64,000 nucleotides of DNA from Eledone cirrhosa (taxonomy: Eukaryota), in NCBI GenBank assembly GCA_964016885.1, contig OZ024741.1:134044001-134108000 (forward strand), written 5' to 3'. Both the position numbers and the translations under genes were made by a program. Below are positions 15,128 through 50,272 of this stretch, in pieces; positions within the stretch are counted from its first letter, which is position 1; the number at the start of each line of letters is the position of its first letter. The notes below the pieces were generated by a model. It had not been told where the DNA came from and ran no database searches. It was given only the letters and a program-made list of their open reading frames with translations.

Positions 15128-15665
15128 ATATTGTTATGCTTTGGGAGGGTCATGTTGTCAATAAGAAACACACGCACCAGTTGCTTTCACTTCAATTTAT
15201 TATAAATTTAGGGATTTATAAATTTCCGGTTGGTTGGTTCCACAACCAGACGATTGTTCATATATTGTCAAAGTTCTTTCGTCACACATTCTGTAACCTC
15301 TTTGTTTTTGTGCCTCTCCTTTGTTCTGTCCTACGCCATCTTGTTTTTGTGTGGGTTCACACACAAAAACAAGATGGCGTAGGACAGAACAAAGGAGAGG
15401 CACAAAAACAAAGAAAAGAATCCCCAGTCACTGAAGAGGTCACAGAATGTGTGACGAAAGAACTTTGACAATATATGAACAATCGTCTGGTTGTGGAACC
15501 AACCAACCTACCGGAAATTTATAAATTTAATTTATAATAAATTGAAGTGAAAGCAACTGGTGCGTGTGTTTCTTATTGGCAACATGACCCTCCCAAAGCA
15601 TAACAATATCGGTTTCAACACACGTTTTCAGATAAAGAATCTTGCTAAACAAATTCAGAAACGAA
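15128..15665 (+). mobile_element. Fold-back PLE terminal-repeat (pLTR) remnant of the family at 49050-50150
   Basis: Arms 15128-~15352 and ~15358-15609 are inverted repeats with a ~50-nt unpaired 3' tail; homologous to the reverse complement of 49078-49390; flanked by (TA)n. Confidence 0.8.
15427..15469 (+). ncRNA. Minimal type-I hammerhead ribozyme motif (family 3)
   Basis: GTCA-CTGAAGA-G-GTCAC(AGAATGT)GTGAC-GAAA-GAAC-TT-TGAC; helix III is very short. Confidence 0.7.
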
Positions 15666-15758
15666 ATATATATATATATATATATATTTATATATAAAAG
15701 ACGTAAAATAAGAACATTTTAAAGAATTTTAAAAAATTAACTTACTTACTAAATTTTC

Positions 15759-15840
15759 ACTCCAACTAATTAGTTTCTGCAATGGTATAAAGACAGTTAC
15801 GTAATAAAACTGTCGAGAATTCATTGCGTCATCAGGGAGT
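15759..15840 (-). ncRNA. Type-I hammerhead ribozyme with extended helix II (family 2, copy 1)
   Basis: Minus strand: ACTCC-CTGATGA-C-GCAATG..GACAGTT..AACTGTC..CATTGC-A-GAAA-CTAATTAG-TT-GGAGT; palindromic helix III. Confidence 0.8.
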
Positions 15841-16301
15841 CTATTCTCAGCTAAGTCTCCAGGCAATGCGCGGACACTGGGGACTCATATAAAAATAATA
15901 ATAATTCGGTAGATGGAACAGCTAGCGGGGACTGGATTCCATGTACTGAAAAGCTCGCTGCCTCTGGTCAAATGGCTGATTCTAAAGAATCAATCACATG
16001 ACACTGAGGCTAGTCGGTGGGAGTGGGATGGTAAGATGACAGAAGCCTACTATCACACCAATAAATTAGTAGTGGTTTTGGCAGGTTTGCTCAACAAATA
16101 AGTAATTTGGAGAAAAATATAGAGAATTTAGTATATCTACTAACATATGCGTACAGATGTATGCTAATGCCAGCAAATACACAGGTTATGTCATAGTACC
16201 TAGGTGGTTCAATGCAGGAGGATGCAGAACAATAATATAAAAGACGTAAAATAAGAACATTTTAAAGAATTTTAAAAAATTAACTTACTTACTAAATTTT
16301 C

Positions 16302-16383
16302 ACTCCAACTAATTAGTTTCTGCAATGGTATAAAGACAGTTACGTAATAAAACTGTCGAGAATTCATTGCGTCATCAGGGAGT
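16302..16383 (-). ncRNA. Type-I hammerhead ribozyme (family 2, copy 2)
   Basis: Same sequence as 15759-15840. Confidence 0.8.
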
Positions 16384-16656
16384 CTATTCTCAGCTAAGTC
16401 TCCAGGCAATGCGCGGACACTGGGGACTCATATAAAAATAATAATAATTTGGTAGATGGAACAGCTAGCGGGGACTGGATTCCATGAAAAGCTCGCTGCC
16501 TCTGGTCAAATGGCTGATTCTAAAGAATCAATCACGTGACACTGAGGCTAGTCGGTAGGAGTGGGATGGTAAGATGACAGAAGCCTACTATCACACCAAT
16601 AAATTAGTAGTGGTTTTGGCAGGTTTGCTCAACAAATAAGTAAATGTGTGTGTGTG

Positions 16657-17397
16657 TAGAGGAATGGCTTGTGAAGACAGTGCAAGCTATGTACAGGGGT
16701 GCTGTCAGTAAAGTGAGAGTAGGAATGGAGTTTAGTGAAGTAGCAGTGATAGACACATTTTTCAAATGCAGGTATGATCTATACAGGTGGTTGATAGCTT
16801 CCGATACCTAGGTGATCTGATTAGCAAGGGAGGAGGGTGCTCCGAGGCTAAAGTATCTAGAATAAGGACTGGTGGGAAGAAGTTTAGGGAGCTGTTTCCT
16901 CTGTTGACAAAGAAGGGTTTCTCCCTACGAACGAAAGGACAGTTATATGATGCCTGTGTGAGATGTGCGATGCGGCATGGTAGTGAGACATGGGCAGCAA
17001 CTGCGGAAGATATGCGATGGCTGGAGAGAAATGAAGCAAGCATGCTTCGTTGGATCTGCAATGTCTATGTGCGTGAACGACCAAGTATAGATGGGTTGAG
17101 AGAGAAACTGTTTATAAGAGGCATAAGTTGTAGTGTGTGGGAGAGAAGACTGCGATGGTATGGCCATGTGATGCGCATGGAGGATGACCGCTGGGTAAAG
17201 AAGTGCCAAGAAATCCCAGTAGAAGGAAGATGCAGTAGAGGAAGACCACGAAAATCATGGGCGGAGGTGGTGAGAGCTGGCCTCAGATTGCTGAGGCGAC
17301 GAAGGATCGTGACGAATAGAGAGATACTGAATAGGACCCGTCCCACCCTTGCAAGCAGGGAAAAGCAGACGTAAGATCATGATGATGATGATGATGA
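16657..17397 (+). pseudogene. Truncated and internally deleted RTE LINE fragment (divergent subfamily)
   Basis: VDSFRYLGD...GSETW...[11 protein letters not shown]...GRPRKSW; ends in (GAT)n then (TA)n. Confidence 0.85.
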
Positions 17398-17509
17398 TAT
17401 ATATATATATATATATATATATATATATATATATATATATATATATATATATATATATATATATATATATATATATATATATATATATATATATATATAT
17501 AGAGAGAGA

Positions 17510-17906
17510 GGCACATGGCTTAGTGGTTAGAGCATTGGCCTTGCAATCGAAAGGTTGTGAGTTCAATTCTCAGACCGGGTGGTGTGTTGTTTCCTTGAGC
17601 AAGACACTTTATTTCACATTGCTCCAGTTTACTCAGCTGTAGAAATGAGATGATAGGGACTGGACTCCCTATCATTCCACTGCAAAGTGGTCGTGGAGGT
17701 GCCACAGCAAAAAAAAGCACCCACCACTCACTGTAAATGAGGTTGGTGTTAGGAAGGGCATCCAGCTGTAGAAATCAAGCCAGAATCAGTTCTCGTATGA
17801 GCAAGACAAGGTCAGCCGACCGGACACTGCCCACAACAGGACAACTCGTCTAACACATGCTAGCGTGGAAGAACGGACGTAAAATGGTGATGGTGATGAT
17901 GATGAT
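17510..17906 (+). mobile_element. tRNA-derived SINE with CORE/Meta-like central domain and RTE-derived tail (second copy ~26500-26845)
   Basis: A box TGGCTTAGTGG, B box GAGTTCAATTC, TCCTTGAGCAAGACACTTTA; 3' part matches the RTE 3' UTR and ends in (GAT)n. Confidence 0.8.
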
Positions 17907-48577: not shown

Positions 48578-48777
48578 NNNNNNNNNNNNNNNNNNNNNNN
48601 NNNNNNNNNNNNNNNNNNNNNNNNNNNNNNNNNNNNNNNNNNNNNNNNNNNNNNNNNNNNNNNNNNNNNNNNNNNNNNNNNNNNNNNNNNNNNNNNNNNN
48701 NNNNNNNNNNNNNNNNNNNNNNNNNNNNNNNNNNNNNNNNNNNNNNNNNNNNNNNNNNNNNNNNNNNNNNNNNNNNN
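48578..48777. other. Assembly gap
   Basis: Run of about 200 N. Confidence 1.
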
Positions 48778-48820
48778 ACGGTGCTGACGATAGCTAACAA
48801 GCTTGAAACTAGTACATCGT
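48778..48820 (+). ncRNA. Minimal type-I hammerhead ribozyme (family 5, copy 1)
   Basis: ACGGTG-CTGACGA-T-AGC(TAACAA)GCT-T-GAAA-CTAG-TA-CATCGT. Confidence 0.8.
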
Positions 48821-49276
48821 TCCTGTGTCAGTGTTGAACAAAAAGGTGACGTGGTTGCCTAAACACTGTACGGCGTAAATCAGGCTGTTCGTTTGTTTAC
48901 AAACGAACAAAGCGAACATTATAATAAATGTTCGGTAAACTGATACGTGCATATATATATGTGTGCCTGTATGTATATATATATATGTACACATGCTACT
49001 GTACGTCTGTAAACATATATGTATGTACGTATACATACATACTTACATTTAAGTAAGTGCCGTACTAAGAGTGAGAAATGAATTTGTTTAGCAAGATTCT
49101 TTATCTGAAATCGTGTGTTGAAACCGATATTGTTATACTTTGGGAGGGTGATGTTGCCAATAAGAAACACACGCACCAGTTGCTTTCACTTCAATTTATT
49201 ATATATTTACAAATTTATAAATTTATAAATTTCTGGTTGGTTGGTTGGTTCCACAACCAGATAGTTGTTTATATAT

Positions 49277-49321
49277 AGTCATAGTTCTTTCGTCACACAC
49301 TCTGTGACCTCTTCAGTGACT
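49277..49321 (-). ncRNA. Minimal type-I hammerhead ribozyme (family 3) in a PLE 3' UTR
   Basis: Minus strand: AGTCA-CTGAAGA-G-GTCAC(AGAGTGT)GTGAC-GAAA-GAAC-TA-TGACT. Confidence 0.72.
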
Positions 49322-49521
49322 GGGAATTCCTTTCTTTGTTTCTGTGCCTCTCCTTTGTTCTGTCCTACGCCATTTTGTTTCTGTGTGTGTGTTGTGTGCT
49401 CAGTCTGCACATGCGCCACATCCGGGTGTCTGTGTGTGTTTATGTTCATTTATTTATTTGTTTATTTACATGTTACTGGTTGGTTGTTTGTTCTATGTGT
49501 GTGTGTGTTTTCATTTTGTCC

Positions 49522-50150
49522 TTAATTGTAAGTTGTGATGTTGCTGTTCCACTCATATTTTCTATTTAATTTTGGTTGTAATTCTTTTATGTTTATTGCC
49601 TCTGTAATTTGTCTAAACATTGCGTCTTTTCTGTGTGTAGATTCTATTTTTATTTCTATGTTCTCTAATTTACCCTTGTGTTCTATCTTAGCATGTTGGT
49701 AGAGTACAGATGATTCTTTATTATCTTGAAGGTCTCGCCAGTGTTCATTTATCCGTTCCCCTACACTACGAGCTGTCTCACCTATGTACACTATATTTTT
49801 GTCTCTACATTGTCCTTCAGTACATCTTATGCTATACACTACATTTCTAGTTTTACAGTTAATATGGGGGCTTATTTTACAGGTTATACATTTCTTATCT
49901 ATACATTAGGGTCTTTGAAAAGGGTATGTCTTGCTAATAAGTGTTTTTACGGAGGTACCTGGTCTTTCTACTATCTTGATATTGAGTTTATGTTTATTTA
50001 GGGCCCTTCTAAATTTGTAAGCTAATTCACCTCTAGGGGTTGTATTGATGAACATTACACTCTGGTATTTATTGCTATCATACCATGAGTTTATTCTATT
50101 AGCCTTGTTCCATTCTATTCCAAAATTTGCTCCTATACAAGGGGCAGGTC
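49522..50150 (-). pseudogene. 5'-truncated PLE of a second family (linker Zn finger + GIY-YIG with CCHH), one in-frame TAA; 3' UTR runs to ~49060
   Basis: The two ORF-track pieces are in one frame: ...VMFINTTPRGELA...YPFQRP*CIDKKCITC...NCKTRNVVYSIRC..C...YIGETARSVGERINEH...H...RQITEA...LN. Confidence 0.88.
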
Positions 50151-50229
50151 CCATTTATGCTGCTCAGCCGTTAATTTTCATAAGGAAAGTATATACTTTC
50201 GAATGTTCAACCATCTGGCAGAAAGGTAT

Positions 50230-50272
50230 ATGGTGCTGACGATAGCTAACAAGCTTGAAACTAGTACATCGT
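50230..50272 (+). ncRNA. Minimal type-I hammerhead ribozyme (family 5, copy 2)
   Basis: ATGGTG-CTGACGA-TAGCTAACAAGCTT-GAAA-CTAG-TA-CATCGT within a ~270-bp direct repeat of 48778-49045. Confidence 0.75.

What the first reader, a model, noticed from the sequence alone, without database searches (positions are those of the whole stretch)
15427..50272. Twelve complete hammerhead motifs from five unrelated families within ~35 kb
Complete cores (helix I, CUGANGA, helix II, GAAA, helix III, UH) occur at 15427+, 15759-, 16302-, 27002+, 36735-, 39565+, 43461+, 47354+, 47958+, 48778+, 49277- and 50230+. Families share only the catalytic core. Four have self-complementary helix III (TGCGCA, CTAATTAG, CAATTG, CTAG), as described for PLE-type minimal hammerheads proposed to cleave as dimers. 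Most host elements abut (TA)n. Inference: a diverse set of autonomous PLEs and non-coding ribozyme elements sharing one target.
Basis: partly seen in the sequence, partly recalled or inferred. Interest (0 to 1): 0.75.

Follow-up and report, generated by a model that had tools for sequence, protein, structure and literature searches.

The report
Hammerhead-laden Penelope elements and retrozymes
The twelve motifs are real hammerhead-shaped sequences at the ends of three Penelope-type jumping-gene families and inside two protein-free repeats that likely borrow their enzymes; this crowding is normal for an animal genome that holds an estimated 300,000 such motifs, and self-cutting is predicted but untested.

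Summary
All twelve type I hammerhead motifs are at the stated places, against 0.04 per shuffle. They come from about seven insertions of five families. Two families are ends of Hydra-type Penelope-like elements (PLEs); one of them includes a young 3.9-kb tandem array with two identical intact ORFs. One is the end of a Neptune/Nematis-type PLE. Two are non-coding tandem units (543 and about 445 nt) that look like retrozymes. The window is not a hotspot: 98 evenly spaced 10-kb tiles hold 100 motifs from about 30 families (102/Mb, roughly 3x10^5 genome-wide), and six random tiles reach 12 motifs 9% of the time. Exact whole-genome counts for three families total 56,075. Helices covary across related families. 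Four families show two fixed 3' ends at TA tracts, the known PLE tail; the fifth is less clear. PLE hammerheads, (TA)n-targeting Hydra elements and retrozymes are all published. The load exceeds the largest count I read (axolotl, 126,247). No RNA evidence was obtainable. The scan found the same system before on other DNA of this genome.

The parts
15130..15665 (.). Family A PLE, back-to-back pair of truncated 3' ends (left arm minus, short end, hammerhead partly deleted; right arm plus, long end), between two TA tracts
   Evidence: self-blast; sequence; end tally
15427..15469 (+). Hammerhead A1: GUCA / CUGAAGA / 6-bp helix II with a 5' unpaired base / GAAA GAAC UU
15697..16643 (-). Family B non-coding tandem element, 543-nt unit, 1.7 units, short 3' end in the TA tract that ends element A
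15759..15840 (-). Hammerhead B (3' copy), 51-nt helix II arm, helix III CUAAUUAG
16302..16383 (-). Hammerhead B (5' copy), identical, 543 nt upstream
26911..27110 (.). Family C solo insertion: 27-nt inverted stub of the long end plus a 3' end with the short end, between TA tracts
27000..27070 (+). Hammerhead C (solo), helix III mutated to UGCACA
36689..47548 (.). Family C Hydra-type PLE array: inverted truncated arm 36689-37954 (short end) and about 2.5 direct units of 3.9 kb, 37951-47548 (long end), TA tracts on both sides
36733..36803 (-). Hammerhead C in the inverted arm
39563..39633 (+). Hammerhead C, about 205 nt upstream of the ORF ATG
39838..42240 (+). Intact 800-aa ORF: telomerase-like RT (YRDD) and C-terminal GIY-YIG-type domain with Hydra motifs
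43459..43529 (+). Hammerhead C, 3,896 nt after the previous one
43734..46136 (+). Second ORF copy, 0 differences from the first over 2,466 nt
47352..47422 (+). Hammerhead C in the terminal repeat
47956..48026 (+). Family D: 71-nt 5'-truncated end of a second Hydra-type PLE inside (TA)n; holds the hammerhead at 47958-47997 (helix III CAAUUG)
48778..49082 (+). Family E non-coding unit, first copy (5' side lost in a 200-N assembly gap); hammerhead at 48778-48820 (helix III CUAG)
49079..50157 (-). Family A PLE, 1.08-kb 5'-truncated copy nested between the E copies; GIY-YIG frame 49522-49905; hammerhead at 49277-49321
50155..50502 (+). Family E, second copy; hammerhead at 50230-50272 with an extended helix I
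58607..58653 (-).
   Evidence: six copies of this family pass the wider descriptor in the 98 tiles

Best explanation
The twelve motifs are type I hammerhead folds carried in the terminal repeats of three endonuclease-bearing Penelope-like retrotransposon families and in two non-coding tandem repeats that are likely copied in trans by PLE enzymes, and they pile up here because these families insert into TA microsatellites throughout the genome. Shown: motif presence, family structure, ORFs, copy numbers, TA junctions, two fixed ends. Inferred from PLE biology: the GIY-YIG domain nicks TA-rich DNA and the RT starts at one of two internal sites 30-290 nt downstream of the hammerhead, so that even very short truncated copies keep the motif. 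Predicted, untested: cleavage at successive hammerheads would release a unit-length RNA (3.9 kb with the whole ORF for family C; 543 and about 445 nt for B and E, which would circularise), most likely through paired ribozymes where helix III is palindromic.
For: Motifs far above shuffles. Covariation in E and two related families: 11 of 14 pairs change on both sides, including 2 of 3 pairs of a distal helix that the descriptor does not ask for; slid controls give 0-3. Family C ORF folds most like telomerase RT (top four Foldseek hits are TERT, E 7e-8 to 4e-7) and has the Hydra motifs listed in PMC8557442. D and A ends join GIY-YIG frames in other loci. (TA)5 lies within 250 nt downstream of 76 of 95 sampled motifs, upstream of 36 of 95, and at 26% of random positions. 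Family C: 25 of 25 loci taken in order along contig C1 have a complete motif, 23 end in TA, 12 at a short and 10 at a long end; 7 of 8 back-to-back pairs have one of each. A: 6 of 6 pairs unequal; D: 2 of 2; B: 1 of 1. Isolated monomer helix III costs +1.5 to +6.0 kcal/mol; the self-duplex gains -4.8 to -10.5 for the palindromic motifs.
Against: No cleavage or expression data exist for these sequences. For family A the self-duplex is unfavourable (+1.4) so the dimer model fits it poorly. Single-sequence folding is not better than shuffles (z -1.45 to +0.82) and the family D region does not fold into the hammerhead as its minimum-energy form. The covariation set was chosen by the descriptor and holds three families with related rows. 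Ends of family E are blurred by an internal TA run, and B has only one informative pair. No sequence link between B or E and a named autonomous partner was found. In print: an Anolis PLE hammerhead cut only with protein and was dispensable for insertion in vitro (PMC11167929, passages); 8 of 9 Xenopus retrozyme dimers did not cut (bioRxiv 10.64898/2026.07.22.740005, part 3); Schistosoma minimal motifs cut weakly (PMC4209133).
Confidence: 0.85

Rival explanations
1. The hammerheads are real folds but passengers: they are kept as part of the RNA structure that the RT binds, or cut only rarely, and cleavage is not needed for mobilisation.
For: PMC11167929 (passages): ribozyme mutants insert normally in vitro and no RNA-seq reads ended at the cut site. 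Naiad PLEs thrive without canonical hammerheads (PMC8557442). Most genomic copies are solo and have no partner in cis.
Against: The 13 core bases and U16.1 are invariant while helices covary between families; about 30 families keep them; a core variant with a compensatory 3-8 pair occurs in six sampled motifs of two families.
Confidence: 0.3
2. B and E are satellite-like tandem repeats grown from old PLE ends by unequal crossing-over, not elements moved through RNA.
For: Head-to-tail arrays exist (contig C353); the 2026 preprint discusses this route.
Against: Copies are dispersed over many chromosomes (24,057 exact E motifs), 5'-truncated, often back-to-back and end at fixed points in TA tracts, which recombination would not give.
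Confidence: 0.08
3. The window is a special hotspot or a functional ribozyme cluster.
For: 188 motifs/Mb in the window against 102/Mb in the sample and 70/Mb in the 200 kb on either side.
Against: Six random tiles reach 12 motifs in 9% and five families in 39% of draws; one tile holds 9 motifs in 10 kb; one tandem insertion supplies four of the twelve.
Confidence: 0.05
4. The motifs are chance matches in AT-rich repeat DNA.
For: No hammerhead family among the 150 listed of 161 Rfam matches; folding z-scores are weak.
Against: 12 against 0.04 per shuffle; 100 against 0-2 in ten shuffles of the sample; reversed-pattern controls 0; covariation.
Confidence: 0.01

Closest known systems
Hydra clade of C-terminal EN+ PLEs, including Hydra-1_Obim of Octopus bimaculoides (Craig et al. 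2021, PMC8557442; read: passages, section 11, supplement rows)
   Same: RW motif, DKT, CxCX5C linker, no CCHH, CxxC and CxH near the C end, hammerhead in the terminal repeat, (TA)n target, tandem and inverted insertions, a tail at one end
   Different: Unit 3.9 kb rather than under 3 kb; RWT instead of RWK in family C; tails of 55-120 nt rather than 30-40; the hammerhead listed for Hydra-1_Obim has another sequence, and the helix III motifs of families B, C, D were not found in the supplement; tens of thousands of copies
Minimal and variant hammerheads of metazoan PLEs (Cervera and de la Pena 2014, PMC4209133; read: parts 1-2 of 4)
   Same: Type I topology, short or palindromic helix III, extra base at the 5' side of helix II (family A), many families per genome, most motifs in truncated solo copies, U3-A8 core variant
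   Different: Counts there are 2,000-9,000 per genome; here about 3x10^5 by a different, shuffle-controlled descriptor; helix II arms reach 36-51 nt in B and C
Metazoan non-LTR retrozymes (Cervera and de la Pena 2020, PMC7229834, parts 2-4 of 6 read; Li et al. bioRxiv 10.64898/2026.07.22.740005, parts 1-3 of 5 read)
   Same: Non-coding tandem units with one type I hammerhead each, GC below 50%, self-paired circle predicted, co-existence with PLEs; E has a 1-bp helix III with a palindromic tetraloop like axolotl HHR_Amex1
   Different: B (543 nt) is longer than the 150-450 bp first described; back-to-back insertions with fixed ends in (TA)n are not described in the parts I read; circles are not shown here
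Neptune/Nematis-type PLEs (features from PMC8557442 passages)
   Same: Family A has a CX4CxxC linker and CCHH in a C-terminal GIY-YIG domain and inserts into (TA)n
   Different: Clade not settled: no tree against reference elements was built

Membership tests
Type I hammerhead ribozyme | Core CUGANGA, GAAA, UH in type I order with helices I-III | tested here: met
   12 of 12 sites
Type I hammerhead ribozyme | Helices supported by compensatory change | tested here: met
   E and two related families: 11 of 14 pairs; B versus B2 helix II shows two double changes by eye; not tested for A, C, D
Type I hammerhead ribozyme | Site-specific self-cleavage | not testable with these tools
   needs transcription assays
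PLE-type dimer-acting hammerhead | Weak monomer helix III, self-complementary insert | tested here: inconclusive
   met on energies for B, C, D, E; not for A; energies ignore stacking and tertiary contacts
Penelope-like element (family C) | Single ORF with telomerase-like RT | tested here: met
   YRDD invariant in 16 sequences; model pLDDT 78, top hits TERT; Pfam RVT_1 did not match
Penelope-like element (family C) | Partial tandem with pseudo-LTRs, inverted 5'-truncated arm, tail at one end | tested here: met
Hydra clade (families C, D) | RWK-like motif, DKT, CxCX5C linker, no CCHH, CxxC and CxH at the C end | tested here: met
   C: RLRWT, DKT, CNCRIKNKC, CNLC, CLH; D: LRWRA, DKT, CSCRKPEAC, CGLC, CPH in other loci; K of RWK differs
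Hydra clade (families C, D) | (TA)n insertion and hammerhead in the end | tested here: met
   C 23 of 25; D 29 of 33
Hydra clade (families C, D) | Generally under 3 kb | tested here: not met
   family C unit is 3,893-3,896 nt; the paper gives this as a tendency, not a rule
Hydra clade (families C, D) | RT phylogeny with reference Hydra elements | not tested
   reference sequences were not loaded
Neptune/Nematis PLE (family A) | CX2-5CxxC linker and CCHH in a C-terminal GIY-YIG domain | tested here: met
   CIDKKCITC; two cysteines inside and two histidines after GIY-YIG read from the frame; Pfam GIY-YIG E 6e-5
Neptune/Nematis PLE (family A) | Clade assignment by RT tree | not tested
   only broken frames were seen
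Non-LTR retrozyme (B, E) | Tandem units of a few hundred bases, one type I hammerhead each | tested here: met
   B 543 nt, arrays of 3-4; E about 420-500 nt spacing in listed arrays
Non-LTR retrozyme (B, E) | Non-coding, GC under 50%, self-paired circle | tested here: met
   longest ATG frame 62 and 58 aa; GC 0.37; circular MFE -135 against mononucleotide shuffles -103+/-6 and -94+/-5 (a lenient control)
Non-LTR retrozyme (B, E) | Expressed as linear and circular monomer RNA | not testable with these tools
   no RNA run was listed
Non-LTR retrozyme (B, E) | No LTR, PBS or PPT | not tested
   no dedicated search was run

The most novel reading that the evidence does not exclude
This genome carries the heaviest hammerhead load yet described (about 3x10^5 motifs, 100 per Mb, 30 or more families), driven by still-active Hydra-type PLEs whose RT also copies circular retrozyme RNAs, starting both DNA ends of an insertion from two fixed internal sites on the RNA. 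The two identical intact ORFs in this window, with retrozymes beside them, would be a ready enzyme-and-substrate pair to show for the first time that a PLE mobilises a retrozyme in trans.
Probability: 0.45. Interest if true: 0.62.

Novelty: new member of a known kind. Interest (0 to 1): 0.4.

Why it matters
What PLE hammerheads do in vivo, and which enzyme moves animal retrozymes, are stated as open in the papers read (PMC8557442, PMC7229834, PMC7761336). A genome with young, very numerous families, an intact enzyme and a measurable insertion footprint makes both questions testable. The estimated load (about 100 motifs/Mb) is roughly 20 times the axolotl density (126,247 motifs, 28.2 Gb) and would place a potential RNA cut site about every 10 kb on one strand or the other, which could matter for long introns if the motifs are active. 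The window itself is a typical sample, not a special locus.

Tried and rejected
Rfam scan at E<=1: the 150 listed of 161 matches are microsatellite and hairpin noise and two weak tRNA-like hits; 11 were not shown; no hammerhead family among those listed. DNA search for the family C end returned no candidates because its words are too common; replaced by a pattern count. Sequencing runs: no RNA holder listed; laying four runs of unknown kind as contigs on family B gave presence only; neither is evidence on expression. Pfam did not recognise the family C protein or five homologues; a profile search of PDB sequences gave 0 matches; the fold search did. The protein atlas was unavailable. Single-strand folding did not beat shuffles. 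Other CUGANGA sites in the window (for example 20554, 11389, 5586, 28329, 29286) belong to LINE sequence or simple repeats and lack the rest of the fold. A search for homology between B or E and a PLE end among the fetched loci showed only diverged members of their own groups (first 25 low-identity rows seen). Two of 100 requested sample tiles did not exist, leaving 98. Literature searches for a larger hammerhead count or an octopus hammerhead survey listed none; the library lacks most subscription papers, and the paper on PLE hammerheads that cleave as dimers (recalled as Luense et al. 2017) appeared only as a cited title and was not read. Supplements of the 2026 preprint are closed and may hold larger counts.
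Full report
Observation. The window is AT-rich animal DNA with LINE fragments and many TA microsatellites. It lies on contig C2 of G000, a 2,996-Mb assembly. Nine of the twelve have a perfectly palindromic helix III insert (families B, C, D, E); the solo C copy is mutated to TGCACA and family A has GAAC. The five host segments share no alignable sequence. Rfam listed no hammerhead among the 150 of 161 matches shown, and single-sequence folding was not better than shuffles, so the case rests on the motif count and on covariation.

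Anatomy. The twelve motifs belong to about seven insertions. Family C: a solo end at 26911-27110 and an array at 36689-47548 made of an inverted truncated arm and about 2.5 direct units of 3.9 kb. Its two ORFs are identical over 2,466 nt, so the array is very young. The 800-aa protein has RLRWT, DKT, YRDD, CNCRIKNKC, CNLC and CLH and no CCHH, the features given for the Hydra clade (PMC8557442 section 11). Pfam and PDB sequence searches missed it, but its model (pLDDT 78) matched telomerase RTs best. Each hammerhead lies about 205 nt before the ATG, so cuts at successive motifs would free a unit-length RNA with the whole ORF (inference). Family D is a 71-nt stub in (TA)n; other copies extend into frames with the same Hydra motifs, 32-33% identical to C. 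Family A ends a PLE with a CX4CxxC linker and CCHH in a Pfam GIY-YIG domain, so Neptune or Nematis type; no tree was built. One A copy is a back-to-back pair between TA tracts (15130-15665); the other (49079-50157) sits between the two E copies at a non-(TA)n site, with part of the E unit missing at the junction. Families B (543-nt unit) and E (about 445 nt in the copy measured) are tandem, 37% GC, without ATG frames above 62 aa, and lie beside a PLE frame in only 2 of 80 and 3 of 63 motif hits, against 25 of 48 for A and 20 of 43 for D (overlapping loci are counted more than once).

Structure. Eleven sequences from E and two related families align without gaps; 11 of 14 pairs change on both sides, 0 of 500 shuffles reach the covariation score and slid controls give 0-3 such pairs. 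Two of the three pairs of a distal helix beyond an internal loop of helix I covary; the descriptor did not ask for that helix. The rows were picked by the descriptor and are related, so this is support, not a p-value. In isolation monomer helix III costs +1.5 to +6.0 kcal/mol, while the intermolecular duplex gains -4.8 to -10.5 for palindromic motifs, -3.7 for the mutated C copy and nothing (+1.4) for A. Published invertebrate motifs with two pairs and a tetraloop can cut as monomers (PMC7761336, passages), so B, C and D need not be obligate dimers.

Is the window special? No. Ninety-eight 10-kb tiles at fixed spacing over 27 large contigs (979,600 called bases) hold 100 motifs, against 0-2 in each of ten shuffles: 102/Mb, bootstrap 72-134, or 2.2-4.0x10^5 for the genome. 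They fall into 30 groups at 80% identity (24 at 70%). Six random tiles reach 12 motifs in 9% of draws and five families in 39%. The 200 kb beside the window hold 14 motifs. Exact whole-genome counts give 20,448 (3' half of the C motif), 11,570 (A) and 24,057 (E), with reversed controls at 0. The same patterns occur 20 times in the tiles against 18.4 expected (C 4 vs 6.7, A 9 vs 3.8, E 7 vs 7.9), giving a ratio estimate of 2.8x10^5 (1.9-5.0x10^5). The estimate leaves out motifs with longer helix III or a U3-A8 core and the re-ordered hammerheads noted by earlier agents (not tested here).

Target and footprint. (TA)5 lies within 250 nt downstream of 76 of 95 sampled motifs, upstream of 36 of 95, and at 26% of random positions. 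Counting from the predicted cut, TA-terminated copies stop at two places: A +158 and about +216-233, B +67 and +185, C about +43 and +132, D +34-36 and +101; E shows +234-237 and +288-292 plus calls at +136-161 that an internal TA run may have caused. In 25 family C loci taken in order along C1, all 25 motifs are complete, 12 end short, 10 long, one is atypical and two read on into a tandem unit; 7 of 8 back-to-back pairs have one long and one short end. A gives 6 of 6 unequal pairs, D 2 of 2, B 1 of 1. A tail at one end of PLE insertions is described (PMC8557442) and has been tied to internal RT initiation in vitro (PMC11167929). That B carries it too suggests PLE enzymes move it. I had seen the D tail; the systematic test followed a lead from earlier notes.

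Mechanism. Shown: motifs, families, ORFs, counts, junctions. From established PLE work: GIY-YIG nicking of AT-rich DNA and target-primed copying from an internal RNA site. Because that site lies just downstream of the hammerhead, the most truncated copies still carry the motif, which explains the number of motifs without any selection on each copy (inference). Predicted: unit-length release, circularisation of B and E by a host ligase as shown for coral, mussel and axolotl retrozymes (PMC7229834), and copying in trans. Against a needed role for cleavage: the Anolis ribozyme cut only with protein and was dispensable for insertion in vitro, 8 of 9 Xenopus dimers did not cut, and Schistosoma minimal motifs cut weakly.

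Comparison and novelty. PLE hammerheads in many families per genome (PMC4209133), Hydra elements in (TA)n including one from Octopus bimaculoides and retrozymes as likely PLE dependants are in print. The five families are new members of these kinds. What stands out is the load: published counts that I read are about 2,000-9,000, over 6,000 in a coral and 126,247 in axolotl, obtained with other descriptors. Searches for an octopus or cephalopod hammerhead survey or a higher count listed none. The host's identity was not tested; earlier notes call it a probable cephalopod. The scan has reported the same system on other windows of this genome.

Verdict. Real, well explained, ordinary for this genome; the genome-wide abundance and the young intact enzyme are the points worth a specialist's time. 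Interest 0.4.

Noticed in passing
window 58607-58653 (-) and 62551-62636: A thirteenth hammerhead with a 14-nt helix III insert holding a CUAG-containing loop; six copies of the family pass a wider descriptor in the 98 tiles; a decayed copy lies at 62551-62636.
   Followed up: partly
window about 50967-51030 (+), 52460-52500 (+), 54990-55044 (+): Decayed members of two more hammerhead families: the first has U16.1 changed to C, the others are eroded copies of a family with a 2-nt CG helix III insert.
   Followed up: partly
L147:7001-7038, L176:7594-7738, L213:1387-1424, L148:1007-1051, L169:8758-8802: Two families with the covariant U3-A8 core (UUGANAA); one sits 10 nt from a TA tract in all four copies.
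   Followed up: partly
window 15600-15665 (+) and family A long ends: The tail of family A contains a hairpin between CAGAUAA and GAAA that resembles a second, degenerate hammerhead core just before the TA junction.
   Followed up: no
window 45900-47300 and 36900-38850: The family C 3' region is 1.3 kb long, pyrimidine-rich, and made of two pairs of about 200-nt internal duplications; this accounts for the unit exceeding 3 kb.
   Followed up: no
window 9083-12445 (+), 32528-35027 (-), 27053-30169 (+): LINE open frames with APE and RT domains: one 1,120-aa frame with a PHD-like finger inside (and a 95% identical truncated copy) and one 1,038-aa frame; several end in or start from TA tracts.
   Followed up: no
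window 48578-48777: A 200-N assembly gap ends exactly at the first E hammerhead, so a longer E array may be hidden there.
   Followed up: no
window 4474-4531 (-) and 17516-17573 (+): Two weak tRNA-like Rfam matches (28 bits) inside a repeated 150-nt segment that also occurs near 26500-26645, possibly a tRNA-derived SINE head.
   Followed up: no
L096, L098, L105, L109, L110 (family A): Five family A copies have GGAC instead of GAAC in helix III, which in a dimer would give tandem G-A pairs.
   Followed up: no
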